A stretch of 46,423 bases of DNA from a virus: UHGV virus genome UHGV-0336137. One strand, given 5' to 3'. Within the stretch, counting starts at the first letter, position 1. Each line of letters opens with the position of its first letter. A program made the translations under genes and the position numbers. Below the pieces are notes generated by a model. It worked only from the letters and a program-made list of their open reading frames with translations, was not told where the DNA came from and made no database searches. Below are positions 280-44,900 of this stretch, in pieces.

Positions 280-330
280 GCTTTCAATCTACGTCAGCTT
301 TGCACGCCCTGTCAATGGTATAATTACGTC
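280..330. promoter_or_regulatory. divergent promoter region: AATCTACGTCA element (286-296; its reverse complement gives TGACGTAGATT with a -10-like TAGATT pointing leftward) plus extended -10 TGGTATAAT (316-324) for the rightward tail operon
   Basis: same element recurs in about 15 copies in promoter regions; the TGnTATAAT box lies about 28 nt upstream of the ATG at 353, which has an RBS. Confidence 0.45.
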
Positions 331-5702: not shown

Positions 5703-8130
5703 TGTTCCTGCTGGCACTAATCTGTGGAGATGGCTGGAGAATTCCGGCCTTCCATCTGATATCAGGATTGCACTGAATGGCCGCATTTTTGGCCCTGATG
5801 ATGAATTGTCGATATCGTTAAAGCAAAACGATATTGTTAACATTTACTGTCAGCCTCGCGGCGCCATTGGCGACCTTATCAGCACGATACTAAAGCCTGT
5901 AACTAAGGTTCTTTCTTTTCTGCTTCCAAAAGCATCAACGCCATCAACCAGCACCGGCACGACTGTTGAATCACCCAATAACAGCCTGAAATCGCAAACC
6001 AATATTGCGCGAAACGGAGAGGCAAGACCTGACAACTTCGGTCAGGTAAGGGCATTTCCAGACCTGATTCAGGAATCGCTTTTTGAATACATTGACGATC
6101 TGAAGTACGTCACCGAGTTCATGAATTTTGGCCTTGGGAAATATACCATTTCATCGGTTCGCTATGCGGAAACTAACCTTGGCTCTCTGCCAGGCGCCAC
6201 TCATGTCATCTACAATCCAGGTGATGTGATTGGACAAATCATTGAGCCTTATCAGTTCGACGGGCTTGATGGTCAGGAGGTTCCAGGGCTAAACGAATCG
6301 GATACAACTCCTGTTGAGTCTGCAACAACAACATCTGTTACCAGCGGTGATTATGCTGGCGGTCAGCTGTTAATGGTCATACCAAAAAATACTGATTTTG
6401 ATTACTTTATGGGGCTATCTTTGCCACACTCAGTAACATTAACAATAAATATTACTTACAATACAACATCTGGCCCTGTAACAAAAAATATCGAACTCAG
6501 CGGCAACATCATTTCAGCTGAGGAAACTGAGACAGGCGTCATTCCTGATATTCAGTATTTTTATAATTTCACCTTCAATAACCTGACTGGCGCAAATCTT
6601 GGCAACCTGACAGGTGCAACCATCAACAACACTTATTTCCAGATTGTGGATAATGAGGCGCTTGTTGTTGGCCCATATGTTGGAGCTGTGGAATCAACAC
6701 AGGTTTGGGTTCACGTTCAATCTGAGCTTGGGCCCACCAGTGGTACGGCAGATTATCTGATCAAGGTATGGGCAGTTGATCATAATGGGGATGCCATTCC
6801 AGGAACCGAGGAGCAGCTTGCAGACAGTATTGACAATCCATTCAATCAGACAACCAAAAACTATTATCGCACGTATAAGTTAACTCCTGCTTATGGGCTG
6901 GCTAAGTATGCCATCAGCATTGAAAGGACAAACAACTCAAACTCTGGCAACCGCGTAACGTTGCAGGCGGCGCACGCTATCAACATCCGCGAGAATGTGG
7001 TTTATCCTGATGACACTCTTGTTAAAGTGACAGTGAAGGCTACGCTTCAGCCAACATCAGTTACTGAGCGCAAATATAATGCGCTGATCACCCGCTGGAC
7101 TATTGGATACAACAGAACAGCCGGGACAGTCGACTATACGTTAAGTCCATCAAGAAGTTTCGCAGATTCAGTGCTGCATAACTGGCTCATTACCGCTGGT
7201 CAGCCTGAAAGCACCATTGACGTGGGAAGGCTCTATAAAATAGCTGATGCGCTGCCTGATGAGCGCCTTGGGTATTTTGATTACACCTTTGACGATGAGG
7301 ATAAGTCCATTGGTGAGCGAATTCAGACCATCTGTGATGCAGCTCGCGTAACGGTTTTTTGGGATGATGGTGTCTTGTCTTTCTCAAGGGATGAGGAAAA
7401 ATCAACTCCTGAAACCATATTCAATACCAGAAACACAAAGGCCGATGGCTATAAAATGTCTTATGACATGACTTTGCCGGGGTCATATGATGGCGTAAGT
7501 GTTCAGTACCGCGACCCAAACACCAACAAACAGGCTTATGTTTATTATAAAGTTGGCACTTCTGGTATCGAACCGGGAGAGCCAACTAAGCCGAAAAAAT
7601 TCGACATGCTATATGTTCGAAACCTGTATCAGGCAACAGACCGGGCCATGCTTGAGTGCAACCGTCTCATGTACTCACGCCGTGGAATGGAGATAAAAGC
7701 GCTTGCTGATGGTGAGTGGGTAAACGTTGGCGATATGATTTCCGTTGTTGACATTTATGATTCTGTACAGCAAACAGGCGTTATCCGTTCAAGGTCTGGA
7801 AACGTATTTACCACCAGTGAACAGCTCACGGCGGGAGGCGGCCTGTTTGTAGTTATAACTGGCGCCAATGGAAATGTGTCAGATCGATTGGCTTGTACCG
7901 TTACTGGATTGAATACATTCGAGTGCGCATTACCATCTGACTTCGAGTTAAACATTTTTGACGGTGTTAACGTTCAGTCAGAATCAAGATATGCCATCTC
8001 AACAGAGGTTGAGCTTGACTCAACTTTATGGACAGTCAGCCAGAAAACTCCAGGTACAGATGGCACAGTGTCTCTTACAGTAACTGAGTACAATGACGCC
8101 ATGTACGCCTACACCAACCCTGTTGCATGA
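5650..8130 (+). CDS. tail tip / central tail fibre protein (J-like) with N-terminal gpI-like ubiquitin-type segment
   Basis: 826 aa; N-terminal ..[22 protein letters not shown].. resembles lambda-I-type tail assembly domain; Thr/Ser/Asn-rich repeats; position after K-like gene. Confidence 0.55.
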
Positions 8131-8168
8131 TACAATAGGGCAATCAATGATTACGGAGATTGCAGCCA

Positions 8169-13204: not shown

Positions 13205-13230
13205 ATCAATCTACATCAAACCACGTCATT
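13205..13230. promoter_or_regulatory. promoter element CAATCTACATCA..CCACGTCA (leftward); reverse complement gives TTGATG-17nt-TAGATT
   Basis: same element family as at 286; about 25 nt upstream of the ATG at 13181; the VRR-NUC stop codon lies inside the second half-site. Confidence 0.4.
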
Positions 13231-15585: not shown

Positions 15586-15630
15586 AATCTACGTCACAAT
15601 AGTAGACTGAATCTACGGCAATAATCAAGG
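15586..15630. promoter_or_regulatory. divergent promoter region with two tandem copies of the element (CAATCTACGTCA 15586-15597, GAATCTACGGCA 15609-15620)
   Basis: lies between the divergently transcribed helicase (-) and primase (+) genes. Confidence 0.45.
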
Positions 15631-18544: not shown

Positions 18545-19003
18545 AATTTACCCTCGCTAACGACTTTTAACCATGATACCCCATAAATTACCCTCCGTAA
18601 AGCGTCCGCAAACAAACTTTGTTTAGGGTTAGCTGGGTTAACTGTGGGGAAGGCCATCTTCCCCAAGATTTTTTACTGTAAGTGTATGTATTATAATAAT
18701 AGTAGTAGTAGTTGGGTTAATTGGGTATATTATTATTCATATTATAGATTTTATTATAACAATAAATTAACAAATGAATTATATGGGTTATATATAAGGG
18801 GATATGAGTGAAAACATACCCTGCTGCCCCTAAATTGTTAAATTACAATATTAACATTAACTTACCGCGAAAAATCTGGGGCAATTAACCTGCCCCAGCA
18901 CCTTACCCACAGGGGTAAATTTTACCCCAGGCGGATTTATTTTCACCATCATATTGACGTAGATTGAGCGCCATCGTATAGTTACCACACCAACAACAAA
19001 GAG
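18545..19003. promoter_or_regulatory. AT-rich early control region: hairpins, (T)TGGGTTA / GGGGTAA half-site repeats (at least 8), a 17-bp palindrome GGGGTAAATTTTACCCC (18912-18928), and the promoter element TTGACGTAGATT (18954-18965)
   Basis: 460 bp without credible ORFs between the replication operon start and the early rightward operon; repeat positions about 18625, 18634, 18712, 18721, 18784, 18903, 18912, 18921. Confidence 0.45.
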
Positions 19004-23804: not shown

Positions 23805-23840
23805 ATTACAATCTACATCAACCACGAATCCACGTCAACA
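23805..23840. promoter_or_regulatory. promoter element CAATCTACATCAACCACGAATCCACGTCAACA (reverse complement: TTGACG-17nt-TAGATT, leftward)
   Basis: member of the recurrent AATCTACGTCA family; near-duplicate of the site at 13205. Confidence 0.4.
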
Positions 23841-24159: not shown

Positions 24160-24215
24160 TTTCATTTTAATCTACGCCATGCTAGAATCTACGTCAAGGC
24201 GCATTGACATAACTA
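24160..24215. promoter_or_regulatory. divergent promoter region with two element copies (AATCTACGCCA about 24169, AATCTACGTCA about 24186) and a TTGACA box
   Basis: between genes 23852..24142 (-) and 24232..24471 (+). Confidence 0.4.
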
Positions 24216-25280: not shown

Positions 25281-25548
25281 TTGGAATCACCTTTGTGATA
25301 TTGGCTGGGGCTTATCCCCTTGCCTATGTAAGTAATATACACATTCCGATAATCGGAAGCAAGGTTTTTATGAGATTTATATCGAAAGGTGGCAAAGATA
25401 TTCGGTCTTGCGTGTCACGAATTGGGGGAGTGCAGCACGGCGGGATACCAAGTGGTGTCATGTGTGACCTTGCTTCTCATCGCTAACAAGGCCATACATG
25501 AAGAGGTTCCTTTTTCGCATCAATATCACGCAGGCATGACCATGCTAT

Positions 25549-25577
25549 AATCCCATCACTACCGATGGGATTTTTTT
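25549..25577 (+). terminator. strong hairpin plus T-run (terminator/attenuator) overlapping an extended -10-like TGCTATAAT (25543-25551)
   Basis: AATCCCATC-ACTACC-GATGGGATT then TTTTTTT, 12 nt before the portal start. Confidence 0.45.
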
Positions 25578-25588
25578 ATGGTGACGAA

Positions 25589-26983
25589 ATGTCAAAGTTA
25601 GAGGCGGTGAACGCCTATATTCAGCAGCGAGTGGCGAACAATAACAGACTCATCGAGCGGCAGCGCCGGGAGTTTAGCGGGAAGAACCTTGACCAAAAGC
25701 ACGACAGGCTTTGGTCGGAGTGTGGTTACAGCCAGGAGATTACAGCAGCAGATTTCCGCTTTGCCTACGAGCGATATCCGTTAGCTACAGCGGCGGTTAA
25801 CCTTGTGCTCAATAAGTCGTGGCAAGGTATGCCCACCGTTCTTGAGCACAATGCTGATGACGAGGCAACATCCAAATGGGAAGTTTCGGTAAACAAAATC
25901 CTCAAGAAGTCAGCTCCATTTATCAAAGATGCTGATAAGCGCAACCTGATCAACCGCTACTCAGGCTTGCTGCTTCAGATAAATGATGGCGGCCAATGGA
26001 GTGATCCTGTTAATGTGACCAAAACAGGCAGAATTAAAGATGCGGCAATCGTTAGGCTAATCCCATGCTGGGAGGAGCAGTTGCGCGTTTCTCAGTGGCA
26101 AAATGACGAGTCAAAGGAGGACTACGGACAGCCTTTGATGTTCGAGTACCAGGAAAGCGCCGTTGATGATTTTGATAACGATGGTAAGCCAAAGCGATCG
26201 GTTAAAATCCACCCTGACCGCATTATTACTCTCGCAGAGGGTGGTTTCGATGGGAGCATATTCTCTGGCATTCCTCTGCTTCGAGCTGGATTTAACGCTT
26301 TAATAGACTGCGCCAAAATTACCGGAAGTTCAGCGGAAGGGCTTCTCAAAAACTCATCACGTCAATTATCTATATCCTTCAACAAAGATAATGTATCTGT
26401 GCAATCCCTTGCGCAGCAAATGGCCGTTACGGTAGAGGAGCTGCCAGATATCCTTAATGAAGATATAGAAAGAATAAATAGCGGGATTGACGCTGCGATG
26501 TTTGGGTTTGGCAATGATGTGGATGTGCTGTCAGTAACCATGAACGACCCTGAACCGTTCATGTACGTAGCGGCCAGCCAATTTGCTTCATCCGTAAATA
26601 TTCCTCTTAACTCATTGCTCGGTAGTCGCAGCGGCGTACTTGCGTCCGCAAATGATGAGCAGTCACTTGCCATGATGGCAATGCAGCGTCGTGACGGGTG
26701 GCTCGATTATCTTATTTCTGTGTTCGTCGAGCGTTTAATTAAATTCGGCATCATCGACAAAGCGCCAGAGGCCGGATATTACTGCAAGTGGAATGACTTG
26801 CTGGAGCCTACGCAGAACGACAAGGCAGAATTGATTGTCAAGCTGGCGCAAGCTGCGCAGAGCGCTGCGAATGCAGGTTTGGACCCAATCCTGACGGCAG
26901 ATGAAATTCGCTCATTCCTTGGCCTTGATCCAATAAAATTACCAGGCGGCATGAGTGAGGATGACCCATCACAAGAGGAGTGA
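25589..26983 (+). CDS. portal protein (putative)
   Basis: about 465 aa directly upstream of a MuF-like gene; start moved to MSKLEAV (GGTGA RBS); size/position and acidic C-terminus fit portal; no motif-level proof. Confidence 0.55.
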
Positions 26984-30289: not shown

Positions 30290-30365
30290 TGTGTTTGTGT
30301 ATCTACATCATCGCTTACGATTCAATCTACGTCAAGACTATTGTGATAAAATAATCTGCATCACC
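30290..30365. promoter_or_regulatory. divergent promoter region: three element copies (TATCTACATCA 30300, AATCTACGTCA 30324, AATCTGCATCA 30353) and extended -10 TGATAAAAT (30344-30352) for the lysis operon
   Basis: between the secreted-protein gene (-) and the endolysin gene (+). Confidence 0.45.
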
Positions 30366-30375
30366 GGAGGTAAAA

Positions 30376-30810
30376 ATGAAACTATCGCAGCGTGGCATTG
30401 ATTTAATTAAACAATTCGAGGGTTACAGCTCGAAGGCATATCCAGACCCGGCAACTGGCGGAGCGCCGTGGACTATCGGATATGGCACAACCAATGGCGT
30501 TAAGCCAGGCATGGTTATCACCGCAGAGAAAGCTGAAAAGATGCTGCGTGACGACGTGGCAAAGTTTGAAAGCGGCGTCTCGTCACTCGTCACTGCCCCA
30601 ACCACTCAGGGCCAGTTTGATGCAATGGTGTCGCTGGCCTACAACATTGGCCTTGGTAACTTTGGTAAATCAACTCTGCTGAAAAAGCATAATGCCCGCT
30701 GCTACACCTGCGCCGCCGACCAGTTCCGGGTATGGAATCGCGCCAATGGCAAGGTCATGAACGGACTCACAAAGCGCCGCGCAGCTGAACGTCAGGTCTA
30801 CATGTCATGA
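30376..30810 (+). CDS. endolysin, phage lysozyme (GH24, T4/lambda-R type)
   Basis: MKLSQRGIDLIKQFEGY...YPDPATGG..WTIGYGTT canonical lysozyme motif with catalytic Glu; GGAGG RBS. Confidence 0.85.
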   Translation: MKLSQRGIDLIKQFEGYSSKAYPDPATGGAPWTIGYGTTNGVKPGMVITAEKAEKMLRDDVAKFESGVSSLVTAPTTQGQFDAMVSLAYNIGLGNFGKSTLLKKHNARCYTCAADQFRVWNRANGKVMNGLTKRRAAERQVYMS

Positions 30811-31052
30811 TGCGCCTAACTAACTGGCTTATCGGTATCTGGATGGCAATATGCTCTGCCCTCCAGGTATTCCCTGATGTGGCGATGCAGGTCTGGATGA
30901 TGATGCCTGACGACCTCAAGAGCGCATTGCCACCATTTACGGTTAAGGCAATCAGCTACTCCGTGCTGGTCATCTCCATGCTTGCGAAGATGCGCGGCAT
31001 GAAGAAAGAGAATAAGGCGCTGAAAAATGATTCTGCAAATCCTCAAGGCTAA
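30807..31052 (+). CDS. putative holin (two TM segments, charged C-terminus)
   Basis: 81 aa, ATGA-coupled to the endolysin; hydrophobic stretches WLIGIWMAICSALQVF and AISYSVLVISMLAKM; basic tail. Confidence 0.45.
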   Translation: MMRLTNWLIGIWMAICSALQVFPDVAMQVWMMMPDDLKSALPPFTVKAISYSVLVISMLAKMRGMKKENKALKNDSANPQG

Positions 31053-31521
31053 ATGGAAAGTTGTTGCCGCTATCATTGGCGTCGCACTTCTGGCTCTGAT
31101 TGTCTACGGAAAGTGGGTCAATTACGGGAAGGAGAAATATCACTCTGGATATCTGGCCGCCGTAGAGGCGCAGAAGGTCAAAGACAAAGAGGCAAGCGAA
31201 CGGCATGAGCAAGACAAAAAGACCATCGAGCAGGAAGCGCAAAACCGCATTGATGCCGCGCGTGCTGATGCTTCCGCTGCTGCTGTTAAGTCTGGCAGGT
31301 TGCAGCAACAGCTCGCCACAATCAGAAAGCAGCTCCTCGATTATTCCGGAACTGAGTCCATTGGCAATCCAGCCGCCAGTACCGGAGTTTTGCTCTCCCA
31401 ACTGCTCAGCGAATCTGTCGAAAGAAATCGACAACTGGCAGAATATGCTGACTCAGCAAGAGAAGCAGGATTGACTTGTCAGGCACAATACAATTCCCTG
31501 CGCAACAAAAAAGCCCCGTAA
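31027..31521 (+). CDS. i-spanin (Rz-like)
   Basis: N-terminal TM (VVAAIIGVALLALIVYG) followed by coiled-coil periplasmic domain; directly after endolysin/holin. Confidence 0.6.
   Translation: MILQILKAKWKVVAAIIGVALLALIVYGKWVNYGKEKYHSGYLAAVEAQKVKDKEASERHEQDKKTIEQEAQNRIDAARADASAAAVKSGRLQQQLATIRKQLLDYSGTESIGNPAASTGVLLSQLLSESVERNRQLAEYADSAREAGLTCQAQYNSLRNKKAP
31253..31474 (+). CDS. o-spanin (Rz1-like lipoprotein) embedded in the +1 frame of the i-spanin gene
   Basis: lipobox LSLAGC followed by a Pro/Ser-rich mature region; entirely within 31027..31521; start ATG uncertain (31205/31253/31268). Confidence 0.55.
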   Translation: MPRVLMLPLLLLSLAGCSNSSPQSESSSSIIPELSPLAIQPPVPEFCSPNCSANLSKEIDNWQNMLTQQEKQD

Positions 31522-31531
31522 GGGGCTTTGC
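31507..31531. terminator. bidirectional rho-independent terminator
   Basis: AAAAAGCCCC-GTAA-GGGGCTTTG; the i-spanin stop sits in the loop. Confidence 0.55.
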
Positions 31532-31544
31532 TTGGCTTGGTAGA

Positions 31545-31760
31545 CTAAACAACGAAGCCGATATTTTCGCCGTCGAGTTTTGCGGCAATTTCAACCTCAA
31601 TAATCATGGTGGCAATCTTTCCTCTCGATTGCGTGCTGGTGTCAGTTTTCACCACGCCGCCAACAATTCTTCCATCCTGGTCTACCACTTGCAGGCGCCC
31701 GTCAATAATCTCCTGATGTAGCCAGATTTTCCCAGGGTCTTTCGCTGCTTGTACTGTCAT
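31545..31760 (-). CDS. hypothetical protein (71 aa)
   Basis: last gene of a four-gene minus-strand operon with 4-nt overlaps. Confidence 0.4.
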   Translation of the reverse strand: MTVQAAKDPGKIWLHQEIIDGRLQVVDQDGRIVGGVVKTDTSTQSRGKIATMIIEVEIAAKLDGENIGFVV

Positions 31761-31981
31761 TTTAAATCCTCATAGAGTGGTTTCATTTCATAGCCAAACA
31801 TTACCGCGTTCTGATGCTCAACACTACCAGCAAACGCCAGATAGCGGCGACCACGATTGCTGGTGATGATGTAGGCTGCTGGTTCTGCAAGCCTCGGGAC
31901 ATGATAATCTCGCCGGGCAGGTTCGTGTAACTCTACCATGTCATTTTCAATGCGTAGCGCGGGGTCTTGCGTTGCCATCAC
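31757..31981 (-). CDS. hypothetical protein (74 aa)
   Basis: ATGA-coupled operon member. Confidence 0.4.
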   Translation of the reverse strand: MMATQDPALRIENDMVELHEPARRDYHVPRLAEPAAYIITSNRGRRYLAFAGSVEHQNAVMFGYEMKPLYEDLK

Positions 31982-32451
31982 TTTACCTCCCCGCTTAGCT
32001 CATTAACAATTAATGTTGCATAGCCAGCAATGTCTTTCCAGCTATCGTCGTATGTCGGGTCGCCATTCAGGATTCTACCGATTTTATGCTGAATCATGTC
32101 CAGCGCCTCACGTTGGCTTGGGGTGAGGTTATGCCACCCGTCAACCTCGTGCATGACGAATTTCAACTCCTGCATGATGGCTGCGCCGTCTTTGAATTTC
32201 CCGTAGCGGCTGCCGCGCTCGGTGATAAGGGCTTCTGTGGAACTGGTGCGCCCATTCAAGTCATCATCAGTTACTGGCTCACGATGGGCGATAACAATAT
32301 CGCCAGCCTTTTCGATATCCTTATCTCGCCCTGCGTAATCCAAGCCAAGATGGTATACCCTGCCACTGATCGCTGACTTCACAACAAGAATGGCGCCAGG
32401 ATGGTCGTAAAAATCCGCTTCACTTCCTTTATGGTATTTGTATTTCATCAC
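31978..32451 (-). CDS. hypothetical protein; C-terminal half possibly all-alpha NTP-pyrophosphohydrolase (MazG/HisE-like)
   Basis: ..TPSQREALDMIQHKIGRIL...DSWKDIAGYATLIVNEL.. resembles the paired acidic helices of MazG-like domains; weak assignment. Confidence 0.35.
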   Translation of the reverse strand: MMKYKYHKGSEADFYDHPGAILVVKSAISGRVYHLGLDYAGRDKDIEKAGDIVIAHREPVTDDDLNGRTSSTEALITERGSRYGKFKDGAAIMQELKFVMHEVDGWHNLTPSQREALDMIQHKIGRILNGDPTYDDSWKDIAGYATLIVNELSGEVK

Positions 32452-32648
32452 TCACCTCTCAACGTAACTTTGTTTTTCTCATCCACGCTGAAGTGTTCGC
32501 GCACAAACGCATACATTTCTTCAGCACTCCATTCACGCATTGCTACATAGCAGTGCGCGTAATATCTGACATCTCGCAGGCTTAACGGCTGGCGCTTAGC
32601 GATAATCTCAGTCAGTACTTCCAGTGGTTCTTTGCGTTGTCTCGCCAT
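32448..32648 (-). CDS. hypothetical protein (66 aa)
   Basis: first gene of the minus operon; AGGAGAG RBS. Confidence 0.4.
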   Translation of the reverse strand: MARQRKEPLEVLTEIIAKRQPLSLRDVRYYAHCYVAMREWSAEEMYAFVREHFSVDEKNKVTLRGE

Positions 32649-32654
32649 TGTCGC

Positions 32655-32740
32655 TCTCCTGTGAAAATCATCTTGACGAATCTACGTCAATTAGTCAATA
32701 CTTGCTGGTGTAGATTGTAACATAAATAGATAAGGTGGTG
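32655..32740. promoter_or_regulatory. symmetric divergent promoter: AATCTACGTCA (about 32679-32689) and inverted copy TGGTGTAGATT (about 32706-32716), each positioned so the other copy's TAGATT falls about 33 nt downstream
   Basis: 96-bp intergenic region between genes starting at 32648 (-) and 32745 (+); TTGACG box at 32674. Confidence 0.5.
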
Positions 32741-32744
32741 TGGA

Positions 32745-32960
32745 ATGAAAAAGTGGCAGGAGGTGACAGAAGTTCATAAGCGCGATTGCAGGGAGACTCT
32801 GCAAATGCTTAATGTGCCAGAGTCAATCATTAAATCTATCGAGCAGCGCATTGATCTGGCTGCTATGGAGGCCGCCCATGAAGCCGAGGAAGCGCAAATG
32901 TTGTCATGGATGGACAGAACTCTACCGGGCGTTTTACATCGTGGTAAGACTACCGATTGA
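32745..32960 (+). CDS. hypothetical early protein (71 aa)
   Basis: AAGGTGG RBS. Confidence 0.4.
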   Translation: MKKWQEVTEVHKRDCRETLQMLNVPESIIKSIEQRIDLAAMEAAHEAEEAQMLSWMDRTLPGVLHRGKTTD

Positions 32961-33043
32961 AGATGATGACGGGTATCTGCACAACCATAGTCAGCTGCTC
33001 AAATATTATGGCGTTCACTACAAAGTGCTGATGGAGAGAAAAA

Positions 33044-33235
33044 ATGAATACTGATCAGGTGTACGAAAAAGAGTTGTTGAACAAGCTGGAGGAACTCGAC
33101 CGTACTCGCGCCTGGGTTGAAAGCGAATTGCGCGAAGTTCGCAACCGCATGCAGCGGCAGGTTAATCGCGAAATTATCGAATGGCGCGAAGGGCGCCCGC
33201 ATTTCAGCAATATTGGTGAATGGGTGGCGAAATGA
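33044..33235 (+). CDS. hypothetical coiled-coil protein (63 aa)
   Basis: GGAGAG RBS; charged heptad-like sequence. Confidence 0.4.
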   Translation: MNTDQVYEKELLNKLEELDRTRAWVESELREVRNRMQRQVNREIIEWREGRPHFSNIGEWVAK

Positions 33236-33456
33236 GCAGGGCCAGCACGTTGCTTCAGTTAATAATGGCTGATGTCAGGGAGGATAATGCAAGGCATGAG
33301 TGGCAGAAAAACCAGCCTGACCGCCGAACATTGAAACAGATGCTACGCGCCAGTTTCGGGCGACCTGGCATAAAGCGCGATTATCGCAGGGATAGGGTGC
33401 TGAGAAAGCTATGCAACATTCAGGTTAAATACATGATGGAAAAGGTGGCCAAATGA
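33232..33456 (+). CDS. hypothetical basic protein (74 aa)
   Basis: ATGA-coupled; start moved to MSRAST (GGTGG RBS). Confidence 0.35.
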   Translation: MSRASTLLQLIMADVREDNARHEWQKNQPDRRTLKQMLRASFGRPGIKRDYRRDRVLRKLCNIQVKYMMEKVAK

Positions 33457-33689
33457 AACCAATGATGAGCAGTAGTGGATTACTTGAGTGCCGTGATTGC
33501 GGGAGCCTTAATATTTTTGCTTGCGTAAATGATTCCAAGTGGATTATTGAGTGCAATGATTGCGGAAAGAAAGGTGATAAGTACGTCCGCCTTTGCTCTG
33601 CTGTAAGGTCATGGAATACCAGAAATGGCTTCCTATATACAGTTAGCGACTACAAACAGGATGCACTGGAGCGCGCAAATGGACTTTAA
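33453..33689 (+). CDS. Lar-like restriction alleviation protein (zinc ribbon)
   Basis: 78 aa; CRDCGS...C...CNDCGKKGDKY...AVRSWNTRNG matches the Lar family CxxC...CxxC plus WNTR signature; AAAGGTGG RBS. Confidence 0.55.
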   Translation: MKPMMSSSGLLECRDCGSLNIFACVNDSKWIIECNDCGKKGDKYVRLCSAVRSWNTRNGFLYTVSDYKQDALERANGL

Positions 33690-34149
33690 AACGCAAATAC
33701 TAACGGTGATAGAGCGCTGCGGCGGCGCAACCAATGCCATGATACGCAAGCAGACTGGCATGACAAACCGAGCCAGCGTTACAGGTTATCTGATTGAGCT
33801 GGAGGGTATGGGATTTATTATTAAAGAGGAAAGCGTCAGCTATGGCAGGCGCTGCTTTAAGTATTTCCTCAATCCCGATAATACTGCGCTTGACCTGGCA
33901 ATTCAGACCTATCTTGAGGCGAACCCGGGACGCAAGAGCAAGCAGATAGCAGGGGCTGTAGGCGTCAATTACACCATCCTCAAGGCACGCATGCGCTATC
34001 TGGCAAGCATTGGTCAGGTTGACCGCGAAATGCTTCCCGGCGGAGCGTGGAAATATTACTGGCAGGAGGTCATTCCGTTTGGCATGAACCGTGACAGGAT
34101 GATGTTTGAAAAGCTGCTTGCCGGGGCGCGTCAGTCATGTGGGCGGTAA
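33679..34149 (+). CDS. tandem winged-helix DNA-binding protein
   Basis: two wHTH-like repeats (..ILTVIERCGGATNAMIRKQTGMTNRASVTGYLIELEGMGFI.. and ..AIQTYLEANPGRKSKQIAGAVGVNYTILKARMRYLASIGQV..); GGAG RBS. Confidence 0.45.
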   Translation: MDFKTQILTVIERCGGATNAMIRKQTGMTNRASVTGYLIELEGMGFIIKEESVSYGRRCFKYFLNPDNTALDLAIQTYLEANPGRKSKQIAGAVGVNYTILKARMRYLASIGQVDREMLPGGAWKYYWQEVIPFGMNRDRMMFEKLLAGARQSCGR

Positions 34150-34427
34150 AGCATAAATCAGGAACCGTGCTGTTTGTCACCAACCGTGAACGCACGGCCA
34201 ATAATCGCAGAGAGATGGGGTGGATAGTGGAGGAAGTGGATGTGAGCAAACCAAAAAGCGCATTAATTAAAATTACATGGCATGACGACACGGTTAGCCA
34301 GTGGCATGCAGATTCATTCAGAGAGGGTGAGCACTCCATTGAAATGAATATTGGTGGATGCATCGTTTGCATCCCCTGGGGGTTATACAAAGATGGCGAA
34401 GTTAAACATTTGGATGTGGAGTCGTAA
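34137..34427 (+). CDS. hypothetical protein (96 aa)
   Basis: operon member, overlapping start. Confidence 0.35.
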   Translation: MWAVKHKSGTVLFVTNRERTANNRREMGWIVEEVDVSKPKSALIKITWHDDTVSQWHADSFREGEHSIEMNIGGCIVCIPWGLYKDGEVKHLDVES

Positions 34428-34772
34428 ATGAAACTACAACTTAGCGAAATAATGGAAGCAACAGTCAGTGAACTGGAGGATATCGACATGACGCTTGCCT
34501 TTGAGATTGAGGCTATTGAGCGCCAGCTTTCCGGGAATCATGATGCGGGCAGAGTATGGAAGGAGAAGGCAATGAAAGCGCGCGACCATATGAAGCGCAC
34601 CCGCGCGCTGGTTCGCACTCGCCTTGATAAGCTCTACTACGGCGAAGAAAGAATGTTGCACGGCGCCATTCTGGCTGAAATCCGCAAAACGATGCCTGTC
34701 GGGAAATTCATGGATGCCGTAAACCGCGCAAAAGTTAACTGCGGAATGTTAAATAAGAATAGTCCTCAATAA
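34428..34772 (+). CDS. hypothetical protein (114 aa)
   Basis: operon member; helical, charged. Confidence 0.4.
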   Translation: MKLQLSEIMEATVSELEDIDMTLAFEIEAIERQLSGNHDAGRVWKEKAMKARDHMKRTRALVRTRLDKLYYGEERMLHGAILAEIRKTMPVGKFMDAVNRAKVNCGMLNKNSPQ

Positions 34773-34816
34773 ATTCTCTTCCGTGGCTGTTACCTTGCAT
34801 TCAGGAGGTAGCAGCC

Positions 34817-34939
34817 ATGCCAATCATACTGATATCATTCTTTGCTACTCTTTTCGCTTTTACCGCATCTCCGCTTTACCTTCTCGCGTCCGTTTCGTGG
34901 TGCATATTCATGGTGTGTTATAATCCGGGCATAAAGTAA
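34817..34939 (+). CDS. 40-aa hydrophobic membrane peptide
   Basis: AGGAGG RBS 8 nt upstream of ATG; MPIILISFFATLFAFTASPLYLLASVSWCIFMVCYNPGIK; overlaps the TGTTATAAT promoter of the head operon. Confidence 0.3.
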   Translation: MPIILISFFATLFAFTASPLYLLASVSWCIFMVCYNPGIK

Positions 34940-34954
34940 GCGCGGAGAAAGGTC

Positions 34955-36355
34955 ATGATTGTCAAAATTGGCGACAAGTGGGTCGTTAAATCTAAGGATG
35001 GCTCGCACCAGTTTGGCGAGTACGACACCGAAGAGGCGGCGAAAAAGCGCCTTGCTGAGGTTGAGGCATTCAAGCACATGAATAATAAATTACAGGTTAA
35101 CATCCTGTATACCATCAATTCGGCCAGCAACATCAGTGAAAAAATCATTGATGGCGACCAGCACTACGTCATCAAGAATGTCGTGCCGGTGGTAGATGAT
35201 ATTGTCATGAATGGCGGTCTGTACCCTGGCGATGAGATTAAAAAATCATTCCATGGGCTTGACGGGAAACCAGCGCCGTATGACCACCCGAAGATTGACG
35301 GTAAATATGTGTCGGCCAACATGACGCGAGCGGCCAATCAGTTCAGTGTTGGTGCATGGATTGAGAACTCATCTCATGACGGCAGCAAGGCGCTGGTAGA
35401 CCTTTATATTAACAAGGTGGTAGCTGAGCGATCTGATAAAGGCAGGGAGTTACTATCGCGTATTGATGGACTCAAAATTAACAGCGCCGATGCTGAACCT
35501 GTTCAGGTGTCTACCGGTCTGTTACTCAACCGCGAGCAGGCATCAGGAACCTCTAAGGGTAAAAAATATTCCTGGATTGCCCGAAAAATGGAGTGGGACC
35601 ACCTCGCCATTCTTCCTCCAGGGGTCCCAGGGGCTGGAACACCAGAAGATGGTGTTGGCATTTTTGCCACCAATGGCGAAGACATTGAGCGCGTCGTGGT
35701 TAACCTTGAGGAATCGGCTATTCCAGACGAAAGTGCAAACAAAATCAAATGGTGGCAGCGCGCCATCAATCGCCTGACTGGCAATCAGCTATCATTCACT
35801 GATATTACCGAGCAGCTCCGCAATATCATCAAGGCAGAGACTCAGGCTGATGTATGGCCCTATATCGTCGCCGTTTATGATAATTACTTCGGCGTTGAGA
35901 TTGACGGCACCATTTATATGCAGTCCTACATCGTCCGTGAGGATATGGTAGAATTAGTCGGTGAACGGGTTAAGGCTGTTTATAAGACAGAGCTTGAACC
36001 GGTAAAAACAACTCAAGGGGAAATCTCAATGACTAACGAGGAATTACAGGCTGCATTAGCCGATGCCCTCAAACCGGTTCAGGAATCGTTGACCGCAGTC
36101 AACCAGAAACTGGCCGATGTGGAGGCGCAAAACAAAACCCTACGCGACCAGCTGCAAGCCAATGCCGCACAGGAAGAAACCGCAATGCGCGCCGCCATTA
36201 TGGCTGAGCTGAAGTTGCCGGAATCTGCTGTTAATGCGCTGACTGGCGAAGCACTGCGTGAAACCTATGCACTCACCAGTAAAGCGGCTCCGATTTCCGG
36301 CGGGTTCCAGCCGAACCGCGCCGAAGAAGATTTTGATATGGAGGCACCTGAATAA
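34955..36355 (+). CDS. prohead protease / scaffold fusion protein (putative)
   Basis: 466 aa directly upstream of decoration and capsid genes; C-terminal third is coiled-coil (scaffold-like); extended -10 TGTTATAAT and GGAGAAAGG RBS upstream. Confidence 0.5.
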
Positions 36356-36828
36356 TGGCTACTATCCGTTATGGCACCATCATCGGCGGCCCGGCCCGCA
36401 AAAATGACCCGCAGATTCGTGAAGGCATCATGAAGGCAGCGTTGAAGCCGGGCGCACTGGTTGACTTCGATACTGCCGATGACAAAATCATCGCACACGC
36501 TACCGCTGGTGGTCAGGGTTTCCCTTATGTGCTCCAGCATAACTACCTCGGTGGTGGTGATGTATCTGAAGATGTTCCCGCTGGCGCTACTGGCATGGCT
36601 GTGCAGTGTGAATTTGGCGTCACCTATCACGCACTGGTTGCTAAAAACTCCCAATTGAAGAAAGGCACTCCGCTGGCAAGTGATGGCACTGGTGCGCTGA
36701 AAGTTGCCGCTAATAAGGAAAATATCCTGTTCTATTCCGATGAAACTTATACCGTTGCCTCTGATGGCGCTGAGCTGGTTGCAGTTCGTCGCGCTGGCAA
36801 TGCTTCCATTCCTGCTGGAGAAGTGTAA
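36355..36828 (+). CDS. head decoration protein (putative)
   Basis: 157 aa between scaffold and major capsid gene (lambda D position); TAATG coupling. Confidence 0.5.
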
Positions 36829-37901
36829 TGGAAAAGATTATTTTTACCAAAGACTTGGTAGCCAACTCCGCAGTAGTGGCTGACCAGTGGAAACATCTGA
36901 CCATCGACCGCAAGATGTTCTGCAATGCAGAGGCTGAGCTGGCGAAAACCTACGGTGTGAACGCCACCGCGCTGGTAACGAAAGATTACTGGCGCGACGT
37001 GGATAACGTCACCACCCGCGTTTTCCGCAACGAAGCTGGTCAGGATATGATGGCTGACCTGATGGGTATCGCGGCAAACATCAATATCGGTAAGACTGTG
37101 GCAATCAGCCGCATTGCTTCCGATGCTGGTAAGGTTGTCCGCACTCTGTCCGGTCAGGAACCGGAAGATTTGGATAAAACTCGCTACGATTACACTGGCG
37201 ATGTGATTCCAATCTTCAAAACTGGCTACAGCCGCGAATGGCGTGAACTGCTGGGTATGCAATCTGAAGGCTTCGACCCGCTGCTGGACGATCAGGCTAA
37301 CGTCACCTTCAACCTGCGTTCCGATATGGCGCAGTACCTGCTGACTGGCGACCAGACTCTGAACGTGAACGGCGTGTACACTGGTTACGGTATCACCAAC
37401 CACCCGAACACCATTCAGGTTAACCTGAGCACCGATTCCCCCGGCCTGAATATCGACCTGCAAACCGCAACGCCAGATGAAATCGTGACCTTCTTCAATC
37501 AGGTTTTCCAGGCTATTCTGGATGCGCAGAACGTATTTGAGCAGGTGACTCTGTGGGTTTCCCCGGCAGTGCGCCGCAGCTTCATGCGTCCGTATTCTGA
37601 TGCTGCTGGCTTTAAAGGTGGCACCGTTGAGCAGTACATCACTCAGTTCGGCAATGGTCGCATCGGTAAGATTGGCACCAACTTCCTGCTGACTGGCAAC
37701 CATTTCGTTGGTTACGTTCGCAACGACATGTACATCCGTCCGCGTGTTGCTCAACCTGTTTCCACCTACGCAGCAGCCCGTACCAACCCGCACGATAACT
37801 TTAACTTCCTCGTGTGGTCAGCTTTTGGCCTGCAAATCCGTAAGGATTTCAATGGTCGAAGCAAAGTTTTCAACGGCTACGGCACGCAAACCGCGCTGTA
37901 A
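36828..37901 (+). CDS. major capsid protein
   Basis: 357 aa, high-expression codon usage, position after decoration protein, followed by a strong terminator; lambda E-like size. Confidence 0.75.
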   Translation: MEKIIFTKDLVANSAVVADQWKHLTIDRKMFCNAEAELAKTYGVNATALVTKDYWRDVDNVTTRVFRNEAGQDMMADLMGIAANINIGKTVAISRIASDAGKVVRTLSGQEPEDLDKTRYDYTGDVIPIFKTGYSREWRELLGMQSEGFDPLLDDQANVTFNLRSDMAQYLLTGDQTLNVNGVYTGYGITNHPNTIQVNLSTDSPGLNIDLQTATPDEIVTFFNQVFQAILDAQNVFEQVTLWVSPAVRRSFMRPYSDAAGFKGGTVEQYITQFGNGRIGKIGTNFLLTGNHFVGYVRNDMYIRPRVAQPVSTYAAARTNPHDNFNFLVWSAFGLQIRKDFNGRSKVFNGYGTQTAL

Positions 37902-37905
37902 AAAT

Positions 37906-37927
37906 AAAGGGGCGAAAGCCCCTTTTA
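37906..37927 (+). terminator. rho-independent terminator
   Basis: AAAGGGGC-GAAA-GCCCCTTTT. Confidence 0.6.
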
Positions 37928-38138: not shown

Positions 38139-38168
38139 AAAAGCCCCGCGAGGGGCTTTGGTTTATTT
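38139..38168. terminator. bidirectional rho-independent terminator
   Basis: AAAAGCCCC-GCGA-GGGGCTTTGGTTTATTTT. Confidence 0.55.
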
Positions 38169-41744: not shown

Positions 41745-41805
41745 TGTTTCTACGTCATCACTATAGCGACACCCTCAATCTGCGTCAACACTTTATGATA
41801 AAATT
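41745..41805. promoter_or_regulatory. divergent promoter region: element variants TTTCTACGTCA (about 41747) and AATCTGCGTCA (about 41777) leftward; extended -10 TGATAAAAT (41796-41804) rightward
   Basis: between the ParB operon (-) and the head-tail joining operon (+); TGATAAAAT is identical to the lysis-operon promoter box. Confidence 0.45.
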
Positions 41806-44196: not shown

Positions 44197-44274
44197 TGGT
44201 TCCCGCGACAGGATTCGAACCTGTACTCATCCGATTATGAGTAGGGTGCTTTAACCAGTTAAGCTAAACGGGAA
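44197..44274 (-). tRNA. tRNA-like sequence, possibly degenerate tRNA-Met/Ile2 (CAT anticodon)
   Basis: canonical T-arm ACAGGTTCGAATCCTGT, D-arm GCTT/AAGC, 3' CCA and loop CTCATAA, but the anticodon stem pairs poorly and the acceptor has a 7:66 mismatch. Confidence 0.4.
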
Positions 44275-44276
44275 TT

Positions 44277-44353
44277 TGGCGCACCATACTGGATTCGAAC
44301 CAGTTACCGATTGCTTAGAAGGCAATTGCTCTATCCTGATGAGCTAATGGTGC
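44277..44353 (-). tRNA. tRNA-Arg (anticodon TCT)
   Basis: 77 nt; acceptor GCACCAT/ATGGTGC, D-stem GCTC/GAGC, anticodon arm ATTGC-CTTCTAA-GCAAT, T-arm ACTGGTTCGAATCCAGT, encoded CCA. Confidence 0.85.
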
Positions 44354-44359
44354 TGAATG

Positions 44360-44447
44360 TGGCGGATAGTACAGGATTCGAACCTGTGAACCGTTTCCGG
44401 TTTATCGGTTAGCAACCGACTGCTTTCGGCCTCTCAGCCAACTATCC
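44360..44447 (-). tRNA. tRNA-Ser (anticodon GCT), type II
   Basis: 88 nt; acceptor GGATAGT/ACTATCC, anticodon arm GTCGG-TTGCTAA-CCGAT, long variable arm AAACCGGAAACGGTTC, T-arm ACAGGTTCGAATCCTGT, CCA. Confidence 0.8.
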
Positions 44448-44858: not shown

Positions 44859-44900
44859 AATCTACACCACCAATCAAAACCTGTCAACATGATATAATGC
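44855..44900. promoter_or_regulatory. divergent promoter region: AATCTACACCA (44859-44869; leftward TGGTGTAGATT for tRNAs) plus extended -10 TGATATAAT (44890-44898) for the major tail gene
   Basis: same spacing (element to -10, 33-34 nt) as at 286-324; GAGAGGA RBS before ATG 44933. Confidence 0.5.

What the first reader, a model, noticed from the sequence alone, without database searches (positions are those of the whole stretch)
32745..34772. Seven-gene early-type operon inside the structural region, containing a Lar-like anti-restriction zinc-ribbon protein and a tandem winged-helix protein; candidate anti-defence island
The operon is driven from the symmetric promoter at 32655-32740. Its genes are small, tightly coupled and mostly unrecognisable. 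One (33453..33689) has the Lar signature (CxxC...CxxC plus WNTRNG). Another (33679..34149) is a double winged-helix DNA binder. Small uncharacterised genes clustered with a known anti-restriction gene are where new anti-defence proteins are most often found.
Basis: partly seen in the sequence, partly recalled or inferred. Interest (0 to 1): 0.55.

Follow-up and report, generated by a model that had tools for sequence, protein, structure and literature searches.

The report
Phage small-gene cassette with Lar-like gene
A block of nine small, coupled genes between the lysis and head genes of a Klebsiella phage holds a Lar-type zinc-ribbon protein, whose core differs from phage to phage, and a double winged-helix DNA binder; it is a plausible but untested counter-defence and regulatory cassette, and related phages already carry the same labels.

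Summary
The ORFs, the Lar signature and the tandem winged helix are at the stated coordinates. The window is a near-complete Roufvirus-like Klebsiella siphophage genome, 97-99% identical to BUCT541 and ZX4. RefSeq already labels the two genes there as "Lar-like restriction alleviation protein" and "MarR family regulator".

- **Lar:** family membership holds only at profile level. The window copy is below Pfam and NCBIfam cut-offs, but its alleles pass, and hhalign to Rac Lar/RalR gives 96% probability.
- **MarR:** this label is not supported. The protein is a lineage-restricted tandem winged helix.
- **Gene count:** the cluster has nine coding ORFs, not seven. The extra two are an overlapping 58-aa ORF and a 40-aa membrane peptide. 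No terminator separates the cluster from the head genes.
- **Conservation:** the cluster is syntenic across four genera.
- **Variable cassettes:** two sharply bounded hypervariable cassettes sit in a conserved frame. One is DUF7301 plus the Lar zinc-ribbon core (30 variants in 41 relatives, median identity 29%, against 93-95% for the flanking genes). The other is the C-terminal part of g6.

This pattern fits an anti-defence slot next to a conserved regulator, much like acr-aca loci. HNH homing traffic and relaxed constraint are live alternatives. Nothing functional was shown. The finding is moderately interesting and is a new member of a known kind.

The parts
32649..32744 (.). Divergent intergenic control region between m1 (leftward) and g1 (rightward)
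   Evidence: The left two-thirds is nearly invariant in 40 relatives. Short variable patches separate the conserved blocks. The same layout occurs in Sf11 and LPSTLL.
32673..32702 (+). Candidate rightward sigma-70 promoter, TTGACG-18 nt-AATACT
   Evidence: Found by the consensus scan at 9 of 12 matches. TTGAC(G/T) and AATACT are invariant in relatives and across genera. Function is inferred, not shown.
32714..32722 (-). Candidate leftward extended -10 element, TGTTACAAT
   Evidence: It is kept as TGnTAyAAT in all relatives, and the variable bases fall on the 'n' and 'y' positions. LPSTLL has TGATACAAT and Sf11 has TGGTACAAT.
32678..32690 (-). Copy of the recurrent 13-nt motif TTGACGTAGATTC, pointing towards m1
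   Evidence: The exact 10-mer ACGTAGATTG occurs 4 times in the window against 0.03 expected, and all copies are intergenic. With up to 1 mismatch there are 11 sites against 2.3 expected.
32708..32719 (+). Degenerate copy of the same motif (GTGTAGATTGTA), pointing towards g1
   Evidence: Sf11 has the full TTGACGTAGATTG at this position.
32745..32960 (+). g1, 71 aa, function unknown
   Evidence: ORF. Annotated CDS in relatives. Variable sites by codon position are 18/11/40. Two allele groups, 66-73% and 96-100% identical to the window copy.
32878..33054 (+). g1b, 58 aa, an unannotated ORF that overlaps the 3' end of g1 and fills the g1-g2 'gap'
   Evidence: GGAGG lies 6 nt upstream of the ATG. 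Third-position bias of 6/6/17 in the non-overlapped part, with no indels in 23 distinct sequences. The frame is open in every relative and the peptide is conserved in them, including Vi II-E1 and Sf11. phrog_27419 hit at 4e-6. The start codon is inferred.
33044..33235 (+). g2, 63 aa, predicted coiled coil, conserved core gene
   Evidence: phrog_15697 at 1e-33. At least 94% identical to the window copy in relatives. About 50% identical in other genera.
33232..33456 (+). g3, 74 aa, DUF7301, part of variable slot 1
   Evidence: Pfam PF23975 at 1e-24. Absent from about half of the relatives. Homologues come only from contigs of this phage lineage.
33453..33689 (+). g4, 78 aa, Lar-family zinc ribbon with a lineage-specific constant N-terminus (MKPMM) and C-terminal tail, and a hypervariable core
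   Evidence: Core diversity: 30 variants in 41 loci, median identity 29%.
33679..34149 (+). g5, 156 aa, tandem winged-helix protein with a C-terminal helix
34137..34427 (+). g6, 96 aa: a constant N-terminal segment of about 33 aa fused to a replaceable C-terminal module (variable slot 2, about 34220-34400)
   Evidence: Tiling against relatives. At least six different C-terminal modules or extra ORFs occupy this slot in relatives. The N-terminal 36 aa stands alone as an ORF in Vi II-E1. The two halves hit two different PHROGs.
34428..34772 (+). g7, 114 aa, conserved core gene, function unknown
   Evidence: phrog_14549 at 3e-58. 66% identical in three other genera. No PDB relative.
34817..34939 (+). 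p40, an unannotated 40-aa hydrophobic peptide gene
   Evidence: AGGAGG ribosome-binding site. Homologous 40-aa ORFs occur in Sf11 and Vi II-E1. Variable sites by codon position are 12/5/25.
34916..34924 (+). Extended -10 element TGTTATAAT just upstream of the prohead-protease/scaffold gene (34955)
   Evidence: The same type of element precedes other transcription units, at 316, 8128, 25543, 30344, 41796 and 44890.
31545..32648 (-). Divergent leftward small-gene unit: m1 (32448-32648, 66 aa), m2 (31978-32451, DUF6378), m3 (31757-31981), and a 71-aa ORF (31545-31760)
   Evidence: A terminator-like hairpin lies on the - strand at 31529-31510.

Best explanation
This is a lineage-conserved cassette of nine translationally coupled small genes, transcribed rightwards from a conserved divergent control region. 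It has two kinds of component.

**Conserved frame.** g1, g1b, g2, the tandem winged-helix protein g5, the first ~33 aa of g6, g7 and the 40-aa membrane peptide make up the frame.

**Replaceable slots.** Slot 1 holds an optional DUF7301 gene and the zinc-ribbon core of a Lar-family protein. Slot 2 holds the C-terminal modules of g6 or extra ORFs.

**Most likely function (inferred, not shown).**
- The slots carry host-interaction or counter-defence cargo.
- The Lar-family protein acts like Rac Lar and lambda Ral. It binds the host Type I restriction-modification enzyme, so that the incoming unmodified genome is spared or methylated.
- Its exposed core has diversified, or been swapped, to follow different host targets.
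- The conserved winged-helix protein, encoded immediately downstream and coupled to it, is a sequence-specific DNA binder. It probably regulates this promoter region or the neighbouring units, much as an Aca regulator sits downstream of variable anti-CRISPR genes.

**Shown here.**
- The genes are real and under purifying selection.
- Lar-family homology holds at profile level.
- g5 has a tandem winged-helix fold.
- Synteny is conserved across genera.
- The variable slots have sharply defined boundaries.

**Inferred.**
- Promoter use and expression timing.
- Any anti-restriction activity.
- Any regulatory target of g5.
For: **Coding status**
- Third-codon-position bias is seen for g1, g1b, g2, g5, g7, p40 and m1.

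**Lar family**
- 10 of 11 allelic homologues hit PF14354, best E 2.6e-12.
- hhalign to RalR/Lar gives 96% probability, E 2.5e-9, over the CxxC...CxxC...WNxR span.
- The AF2 model is a zinc ribbon plus helices, pLDDT 86.5.
- phrog_599 'Lar-like' hits at 8e-7.

**Known family function**
- Lar alleviates EcoKI restriction and enhances modification (King & Murray 1995, as cited in PMC4041452 and PMC11482910).
- A Lar homologue in phage Bas63 is conditionally essential depending on the host.

**Hypervariability**
- Tiling against 42 relatives shows only 9-21 of 42 retain 33230-33620 and 15 of 42 retain 34220-34400. Flanking DNA is about 90% conserved in 38-42 of 42.
- The Lar core has 30 variants in 41 loci, 13 clusters at 60% identity or more, and median identity 29%. 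The tail is 84%, g2 95% and g5 93%.
- The slot contents are catalogued.

**Conserved pairing with the regulator**
- The Lar-like and WH genes are adjacent in Roufvirus-like, Macdonaldcampvirus, Segzyvirus and Cedarrivervirus phages.

**WH fold**
-.

**Control region**
- It is conserved, with inverted copies of a motif that recurs genome-wide.
Against: - No functional data exist for any gene in this cluster. Papers on these phages only annotate them.
- The window's own Lar copy is below both curated thresholds.
- The Lar-like gene is universal and positionally fixed across four genera. That is more typical of a core function than of sporadic anti-defence cargo.
- Slot 1 and the intergenic region are insertion sites for HNH homing endonucleases in relatives. 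Homing and co-conversion could therefore generate the variability without selection from host defences.
- The most variable part of g5 is its first recognition helix. It varies independently of the intergenic-region type and of the Lar core, so there is no covariation evidence for a regulator-operator or regulator-partner relationship.
- Promoter assignment rests on consensus and conservation only. The scan finds no excess of promoter-like sites.
- No terminator separates the cluster from the head genes, so it may partly be a leader of the head operon.
Confidence: 0.42

Rival explanations
1. **Developmental regulatory module.** The conserved zinc-ribbon protein and the tandem winged-helix protein, with g2 and g7, control phage transcription or head-gene expression, for example by activating or timing the adjacent head operon. 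The 'Lar' resemblance then reflects only a shared small zinc-ribbon fold with a WNxR helix, not anti-restriction.
For: - Synteny and translational coupling of the pair are strict, directly upstream of the head genes, in four genera.
- The pair is universal in 40+ relatives.
- No terminator separates the cluster from the head genes.
- Weak hits of the zinc ribbon to transcription-associated ribbons such as Elf1, TFIIIB and Rpb12.
- The Lar family has only one experimentally characterised member.
Against: - A transcription-factor partner would not be expected to tolerate 29% median identity in its core while its neighbours stay at 93-95%.
- The Lar core shows no covariation with g5.
- The hits to transcription ribbons are not significant. 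Foldseek E-values are 0.06 or worse.
- The head genes have their own conserved extended -10 element at 34916.
Confidence: 0.25
2. **Recombination scar with no dedicated function.** The two variable segments are by-products of homing-endonuclease traffic and illegitimate or homologous recombination at conserved anchor sequences. The cargo consists of dispensable ORFans under weak constraint, and the cluster is ordinary mosaic filler typical of this phage group.
For: - HNH_3 endonuclease genes are inserted in the intergenic region (173 aa) in about 10 relatives.
- At least three different HNH ORFs occur in slot 1. One is fused in frame to the constant Lar tail.
- The variable segments have sharp constant boundaries, which would serve as recombination anchors.
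- Mosaicism and several HNH genes are noted for this group in PMC11769527.
- All cargo families are restricted to this lineage.
Against: - Every relative keeps an intact Lar-type ORF with all four Cys and the WNTR motif, despite extreme core divergence. That argues for selection to keep a functional protein.
- The window allele group of the Lar-like gene, and the g6 modules, recur in several otherwise different genomes.
Confidence: 0.23
3. **RalR-type DNase.** The Lar-like protein is a small non-specific endonuclease, as reported for Rac RalR. It is used to degrade host DNA, or it acts as a toxin.
For: The family prototype RalR cleaves DNA in vitro and is toxic when over-expressed (PMC4041452). 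Homology to RalR holds at profile level.
Against: - RalR K52Q is inactive. The aligned residue here is Thr56, which is invariant in the homologue alignment.
- No antisense RNA or antitoxin-like feature was detected, and Rfam finds nothing in 31000-36000.
- A non-specific DNase would not obviously need a hypervariable core.
Confidence: 0.05

Closest known systems
Lar / RalR of the E. coli Rac prophage (Pfam PF14354 Lar_restr_allev, TIGR03655)
   Same: A small protein of about 64-80 aa with a CxxC...CxxC zinc ribbon followed by a helix carrying A-x-x-x-W-N-x-R. The profile-profile match is 96% probability. Alleles at the same locus pass the Pfam threshold.
   Different: - The window copy itself is sub-threshold.
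- It carries a lineage-specific constant N-terminus (MKPMM) and a 20-aa C-terminal tail (G-x-LYT-x-x-DYKQDA-x-ERANGL) that RalR lacks.
- The RalR residue K52, needed for DNase and toxicity, is Thr here.
- It sits in a virulent-phage small-gene operon, coupled to a winged-helix gene, rather than next to recET with an antisense RNA.
- No function has been tested.
Lambda Ral (restriction alleviation / modification enhancement)
   Same: The proposed mode of action is the same. A ~70-aa phage protein modulates the Type IA methyltransferase so that unmodified DNA is methylated rather than cut (PMC12707154).
   Different: No sequence relationship was tested or expected. This is a functional analogy only.
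MarR-family transcription regulators (the label used by PHROG and RefSeq for g5)
   Same: The protein contains winged helix-turn-helix units. The best PDB fold matches include MarR and PadR proteins.
   Different: - Pfam MarR gives 15 bits against a cut-off of 24.6.
- All Foldseek E-values are above 1e-3, with TM about 0.4, covering a single domain only.
- The architecture is two winged helices in tandem plus one C-terminal helix, not one wHTH flanked by dimerisation helices.
- The family has only 6 representatives among 1.84 billion proteins.
Anti-CRISPR-Aca operons and other phage anti-defence loci
   Same: Variable small genes sit immediately upstream of a conserved (w)HTH gene in one short operon. 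The operon is driven by a conserved promoter region that contains inverted repeats. Cargo turns over between close relatives.
   Different: - The variable gene is always a member of one family (Lar-like), not unrelated genes.
- No anti-defence activity, autorepression or operator binding has been shown.
- The regulator is a tandem winged helix rather than a classical HTH Aca.
- Most of the cluster is conserved core rather than cargo.
Tandem winged-helix proteins (SelB C-terminal WH2-4, RNA polymerase III Rpc34)
   Same: Two consecutive winged-helix units. These entries appear among the fold matches.
   Different: The matches are weak (E 2.7e-3 to 9e-3, TM 0.33-0.41). There is no sequence relationship, and the biology is unrelated.

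Membership tests
Lar restriction-alleviation family (PF14354 / TIGR03655) | Four-cysteine zinc ribbon (CxxC ... CxxC) | tested here: met
   C13, C16, C34 and C37 are invariant in alignment A1. The AF2 model shows a zinc-ribbon beta-hairpin pair, pLDDT 86.5.
Lar restriction-alleviation family (PF14354 / TIGR03655) | C-terminal helix with the A-x-x-x-W-N-x-R motif | tested here: met
   A50, W54, N55 and R57 are invariant. They align with EALERWNKR of RalR.
Lar restriction-alleviation family (PF14354 / TIGR03655) | Score above the curated family threshold | tested here: not met
   Window protein: PF14354 14.3 bits against 28.6, and TIGR03655 17.1 against 39.6. Ten of 11 aligned homologues do match PF14354 at E of 0.01 or better, best 2.6e-12. 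Five of them carry a precomputed PF14354 hit.
Lar restriction-alleviation family (PF14354 / TIGR03655) | Profile-level homology to the prototype (Rac Lar/RalR) | tested here: met
   hhalign of A1 against RalR: probability 96.2%, E 2.5e-9, 51 aligned columns.
Lar restriction-alleviation family (PF14354 / TIGR03655) | Alleviates Type I restriction and enhances modification | not testable with these tools
   This needs plating assays on hosts carrying restriction-modification systems.
RalR type I toxin (DNase) | Lys52 required for DNase activity and toxicity; cis-encoded antitoxin RNA | tested here: not met
   RalR K52Q is inactive. The aligned residue is T56, invariant in the homologue alignment. 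Rfam finds no sRNA in 31000-36000 above chance.
MarR family regulators | Match to the Pfam MarR / MarR_2 model above threshold | tested here: not met
   PF01047 15 bits against 24.6, E 0.023. No NCBIfam hit.
MarR family regulators | One wHTH per ~140-150-aa subunit, flanked by N- and C-terminal dimerisation helices | tested here: not met
   - The AF2 model has WH1 at residues 1-64 and a second three-helix unit at 66-110, followed by a wing and one C-terminal helix.
- The two halves align in register.
- Single-domain relatives match only residues 71-151.
Winged-helix DNA-binding fold (general) | H1-H2-H3 followed by a beta-hairpin wing | tested here: met
   WH1: H3-14, H19-26, H31-43, E47-54, E57-64, pLDDT 80-87. 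Fold matches are to MarR, PadR, ROK and Stf76 winged helices.
Anti-defence locus with associated regulator (acr-aca-like) | Variable small cargo genes next to a conserved (w)HTH gene in one operon | tested here: met
   Lar core median identity is 29% against 93% for g5.
Anti-defence locus with associated regulator (acr-aca-like) | Cargo inhibits a host defence system; regulator represses the operon promoter | not testable with these tools
   No experiment was possible. The computational proxy was covariation of the g5 recognition helix with the intergenic-region type or the Lar core, and it was negative.

The most novel reading that the evidence does not exclude
The Lar-like gene in this phage lineage may be a dedicated 'specificity cassette'. 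A constant N-terminus and a constant 20-aa tail hold it in a conserved operon next to a tandem winged-helix partner. The zinc-ribbon core (13 or more deeply divergent allele families among near-identical phages) is exchanged to match different host restriction or defence variants.

Likewise, the constant 33-aa N-terminal segment of g6 may act as a common adaptor onto which alternative effector modules are fused.

Together these would form a modular, plug-in counter-defence platform in a virulent siphophage, not just a sporadic anti-restriction gene.
Probability: 0.15. Interest if true: 0.7.

Novelty: new member of a known kind. Interest (0 to 1): 0.38.

Why it matters
These Roufvirus-like Klebsiella phages are being developed for therapy (BUCT541, ZX4, ZCKP8 and others). 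Host range in Klebsiella is partly limited by restriction and other defences. If the hypervariable Lar-type core and the swappable g6 modules do determine which defences a phage can overcome, two things follow:
- They would be markers for choosing phages, and handles for engineering phages with wider host range.
- The locus would give a natural allelic series (13 or more core families in an otherwise constant background) for working out how Lar-type proteins recognise their targets. That question has had only one experimental anchor since 1995.

If the variability instead reflects homing-endonuclease traffic, the locus is ordinary phage mosaicism.

Tried and rejected
1. **Natural Lar-WH fusion.** Sf11 'gp46' (232 aa) and several 185-227-aa database homologues looked like fusions. 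Translation shows they are only the WH reading frame left open upstream, and the Lar ORF lies in another frame. Rejected.
2. **g5 as an iteron-binding replication initiator.** No iteron-like repeats occur in or near the cluster. Nothing else pointed to a replication role.
3. **Covariation of the variable first recognition helix of g5 with the intergenic-region type or with the Lar core.** None was found.
4. **The recurrent 13-nt motif as a simple -35 box plus spacer.** The motif (TTGACGTAGATTG) gives good -10 hexamers at 17 nt in about half of the sites. In the other half the start codon is too close. Reading TAGATT as a -10 lacks any -35 or TG. Unresolved.
5. **A clean early (-35/-10) against late (extended -10) promoter dichotomy, implying an AsiA-like switch.** Extended -10 elements also precede non-structural units, for example at 18761 and 32722. 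Dropped.
6. **Function for the other genes.**
   - Pfam, PHROGs, NCBIfam and PADLOC gave only 'unknown function' families.
   - PDB profile searches for g2, g7, the Lar-like protein and g5 gave nothing significant.
   - Foldseek gave only generic zinc ribbons and winged helices.
   - The DUF7301 and g5 families proved restricted to this lineage.
7. **Rfam on 31000-36000.** Nothing above chance.
8. **Literature.** Papers on BUCT541, ZCKp20p and KlebP_265 only annotate these genes.


Full report
**What the window is.** The 46.4-kb window is an almost complete, circularly permuted genome of a virulent Klebsiella siphophage.
- The finding region is 97.5-98.9% identical to BUCT541 and vB_KpnS_ZX4. 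The first 25 kb is 94.5-97.9% identical to them. Nearly all ZX4 genes map onto the window.
- The group includes Roufvirus (pIS4-A, pYD38-A). A recent paper proposes it as a subfamily 'Roufvirinae' and notes its mosaicism and many HNH genes (PMC11769527; taxonomy).
- In this group the structural genes are repeatedly interrupted by clusters of small genes on either strand.
- The finding lies between the lysis cassette (30376-31521) and the prohead-protease/scaffold, decoration and major-capsid genes (34955-37901). The statement 'inside the structural region' is therefore correct.

**The observation.** All seven ORFs are present at the stated coordinates and are annotated CDSs in relatives.
- Their junctions are ATGA overlaps (g2/g3, g3/g4), 11-nt and 13-nt overlaps (g4/g5, g5/g6) and a TAA-ATG abutment (g6/g7). 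The tight coupling is real.
- Substitutions among relatives concentrate on third codon positions for g1, g2, g5 and g7. These are genuine protein-coding genes.

*Two additions.* The 83-nt 'gap' between g1 and g2 is coding in another frame:
- An ORF from ATG 32878 (GGAGG 6 nt upstream) to 33054 encodes 58 aa.
- Its non-overlapped part shows 6/6/17 variable sites by codon position, with no indels.
- The frame is open and the peptide is conserved in all relatives, including the distant Vi II-E1 and Sf11.
- It hits phrog_27419.

Downstream of g7, an unannotated 40-aa hydrophobic ORF (34817-34939, AGGAGG ribosome-binding site) is conserved across genera and shows coding-type substitution. The unit therefore has nine genes.

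*Operon boundary.* No terminator-like site lies on the + strand before two hairpins that follow the capsid gene. The hairpin at 37906-37925 is called on the - strand only. The one at 38140-38159 is called on the + strand. The head genes also have their own extended -10 element (TGTTATAAT, 34916-34924). The 'operon' is therefore not insulated from the head genes.

**The control region.** The 96-bp intergenic region (32649-32744) separates the cluster from a divergent leftward unit. That unit comprises m1, m2 (DUF6378), m3 and a 71-aa ORF, and ends at a terminator-like hairpin at 31529-31510.
- In the window the symmetry rests on short arms: TTGACG/CGTCAA, AATCTAC/GTAGATT and TTGACGAAT/ATTAGTCAA. 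These would not be significant alone.
- The region is nevertheless a clear phylogenetic footprint. TTGAC(G/T)-18 nt-AATACT is invariant in 40 relatives, and in Sf11 and LPSTLL.
- A leftward TGnTAyAAT extended -10 is kept, with variation exactly at the degenerate positions.
- Five relatives (L006, L035, L037, L042, L043) carry a perfect palindrome with 11-nt arms, AGTATTGACTA...TAGTCAATACT.
- The region also holds two inverted copies of a 13-nt motif (TTGAyGTAGATTG) that recurs in the genome. The exact 10-mer occurs 4 times against 0.03 expected, and sites with up to 1 mismatch number 11 against 2.3 expected. Nearly all are intergenic and oriented towards small-gene clusters and replication genes. 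I could not decide whether the motif is a promoter element or an operator.
- Promoter use and 'early' timing are therefore inferences. The consensus scan shows no excess of promoter-like sites. Extended -10 elements precede both structural and non-structural units.

**The Lar-like protein (g4).**
- The window copy is below the curated thresholds: PF14354 14.3 against 28.6 bits, and TIGR03655 17.1 against 39.6 bits.
- Ten of 11 aligned homologues from the same locus hit PF14354, best 2.6e-12.
- The profile of the alignment matches the prototype Rac Lar/RalR at 96% probability over the whole zinc ribbon and the WNxR helix.
- The AF2 model (pLDDT 86.5) is a zinc ribbon followed by two helices.
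- No Lar-type protein turned up among the PDB matches. Only generic ribbons match.
- Beyond the Lar domain, this lineage has a constant N-terminus (MKPMM) and a constant 20-aa tail.
- RalR's Lys52, whose mutation abolishes DNase activity (PMC4041452), is Thr here. This argues against a RalR-type nuclease.

The protein is thus a member of the Lar family in the broad, profile-level sense. The family's function rests on one experiment, King & Murray 1995, cited. There is also a host-dependent essentiality signal for a homologue in phage Bas63 (PMC11482910).

**The winged-helix protein (g5).**
- The AF2 model (pLDDT 74.5) gives a confident first winged helix (residues 1-64). A second three-helix unit follows, with a poorly modelled wing and a C-terminal helix.
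- Weak Pfam wHTH hits fall in both halves.
- The halves align in register, E 0.015.
- Single-domain relatives match only the second half.
- Fold searches return MarR, PadR, SelB and Rpc34 winged helices, all with E above 1e-3.
- In the viral library, only the close homologue, a 125-aa uncharacterised viral protein (39% identity) and the Vi II-E1 homologue match strongly.
- The family has six representatives among 1.84 billion proteins.

The 'double winged helix' reading is supported. The 'MarR family' label used in RefSeq and PHROGs is not.

**Comparative anatomy, the main new result.**
- The whole cluster is syntenic in Vi II-E1 (Macdonaldcampvirus), LPSTLL (Segzyvirus) and Sf11 (Cedarrivervirus), with g5 at 35-44% identity. 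The shared layout is m1 divergent, then g1, g1b, g2, Lar-like, WH, the N-terminus of g6, g7, a small membrane peptide, and the head genes. Most of it is lineage core, not an 'island'.
- Among 42 close relatives, DNA tiling shows two sharply bounded hypervariable segments in a roughly 90%-conserved frame. They are 33230-33620 (g3 plus the Lar core) and 34220-34400 (the C-terminal two-thirds of g6).
- g3 (DUF7301) is present in about half of the phages, and its family is confined to this lineage.
- Every phage has a Lar-type ORF with intact Cys and WNTR motifs.
- The core between them exists in 30 variants in 41 loci. These form 13 clusters at 60% identity or more, with median pairwise identity 29%. 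The tail is 84%, g2 95% and g5 93%.
- g6 consists of a constant 33-aa N-terminus, which stands alone as a 36-aa ORF in Vi II-E1, fused to at least six alternative C-terminal modules or followed by extra ORFs.
- HNH_3 homing endonucleases are inserted in the intergenic region and in slot 1 in some relatives. One is fused in frame to the constant Lar tail.

**Interpretation.** The pattern is a conserved regulator-like gene preceded by a rapidly changing small gene of a family linked to anti-restriction, with a second plug-in slot downstream.
- It resembles anti-defence loci with an associated regulator, such as acr-aca.
- I therefore favour a counter-defence and regulatory cassette in which the Lar-type protein acts on host Type I R-M, as Lar and Ral do (for Ral). 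My confidence is about 0.4.
- Against this, the Lar gene is universal and positionally fixed.
- HNH traffic could create the variability.
- The variable recognition helix of g5 covaries neither with the intergenic-region type nor with the Lar core.
- There are no functional data at all.
- The rivals are a developmental regulatory module (0.25), recombination or homing scars without dedicated function (0.23), and a RalR-type DNase (0.05).

**Novelty and score.** The two labels already exist in the RefSeq annotation of near-identical phages, so the core of the finding is a new member of a known kind. This analysis adds:
- the corrected gene count;
- the cross-genus conservation;
- the rejection of the MarR label;
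- the quantified hypervariable Lar cassette and the modular g6;
- the conserved control region with a motif that recurs genome-wide.

Interest is moderate (0.38). The locus is a good experimental entry point, but nothing surprising has been demonstrated.

Noticed in passing
window 286-297, 13208-13219, 15586-15597, 15610-15621, 18957-18966, 23810-23821, 24169-24197, 30324-30335, 32678-32690, 32708-32719, 41776-41788, 44859-44870: A 13-nt motif, TTGAyGTAGATTG (cAATCTACrTCAa on the other strand), recurs in the genome. The exact 10-mer occurs 4 times against 0.03 expected, and sites with up to 1 mismatch number 11 against 2.3. Nearly all copies are intergenic. They point towards small-gene clusters and replication genes, usually 12-30 nt upstream of a Shine-Dalgarno sequence. 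The motif is also present in the equivalent intergenic regions of Sf11, LPSTLL and Vi II-E1. It could be a phage-specific promoter element or an operator; this is unresolved.
   Followed up: partly
window 316-324, 8128-8136, 25543-25551, 30344-30352, 34916-34924, 41796-41804, 44890-44898 (+); 18753-18761, 32714-32722 (-): Extended -10 elements (TGnTAnAAT, at least 5 of 6 matches) sit just upstream of most transcription units. Several lie 0-20 nt downstream of a GTCAA or AATCTAC motif. They precede both structural and non-structural units.
   Followed up: partly
window 34817-34939 (+): An unannotated 40-aa hydrophobic peptide gene with a strong AGGAGG ribosome-binding site lies between g7 and the head genes. 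It is conserved in Sf11 and Vi II-E1, which also have a second 48-aa membrane peptide upstream of it.
   Followed up: partly
window 32878-33054 (+): An unannotated 58-aa ORF (g1b) overlaps the last 83 nt of g1 in the +1 frame. In the overlap, the g1b frame looks better conserved across genera than the g1 frame. The start codon is inferred, and a frameshift product has not been excluded.
   Followed up: partly
L005:2770-3291 and equivalents in about 10 loci; slot 1 of L008, L030, L032, L033: HNH_3 (some with AP2) homing-endonuclease genes are present or absent in the m1/g1 intergenic region and inside the Lar slot of close relatives. In two loci the HNH ORF ends with the constant Lar tail.
   Followed up: partly
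window 25543-25580: TGCTATAAT is followed directly by a short hairpin (CCCATC...GATGGG) and a run of seven T, then by an ATG at 25579-25581. This lies at the 5' end of the portal ORF (25565-26983). It may be an attenuator-like arrangement, or the portal start may be mis-set.
   Followed up: no
window 44197-44447 (-): Three tRNA genes (Met-CAT, Arg-TCT, Ser-GCT) lie in the otherwise unannotated stretch upstream of the major tail protein gene, as reported for BUCT541.
   Followed up: no
window 31978-32451 (-) and 31757-31981 (-): The leftward unit is also mosaic. Roughly the N-terminal two-thirds of m2 (DUF6378; 32120-32420) and the N-terminal part of m3 (31880-31970) are replaced in many relatives, whereas m1 is 94-100% identical to the window copy.
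   Followed up: no
window 33484-33502 and 33547-33565: The two CxxC knuckles of the Lar-like gene are encoded by a 19-nt direct repeat with 89% identity (LECRDCG / IECNDCG). This suggests an internal duplication in this allele.
   Followed up: no
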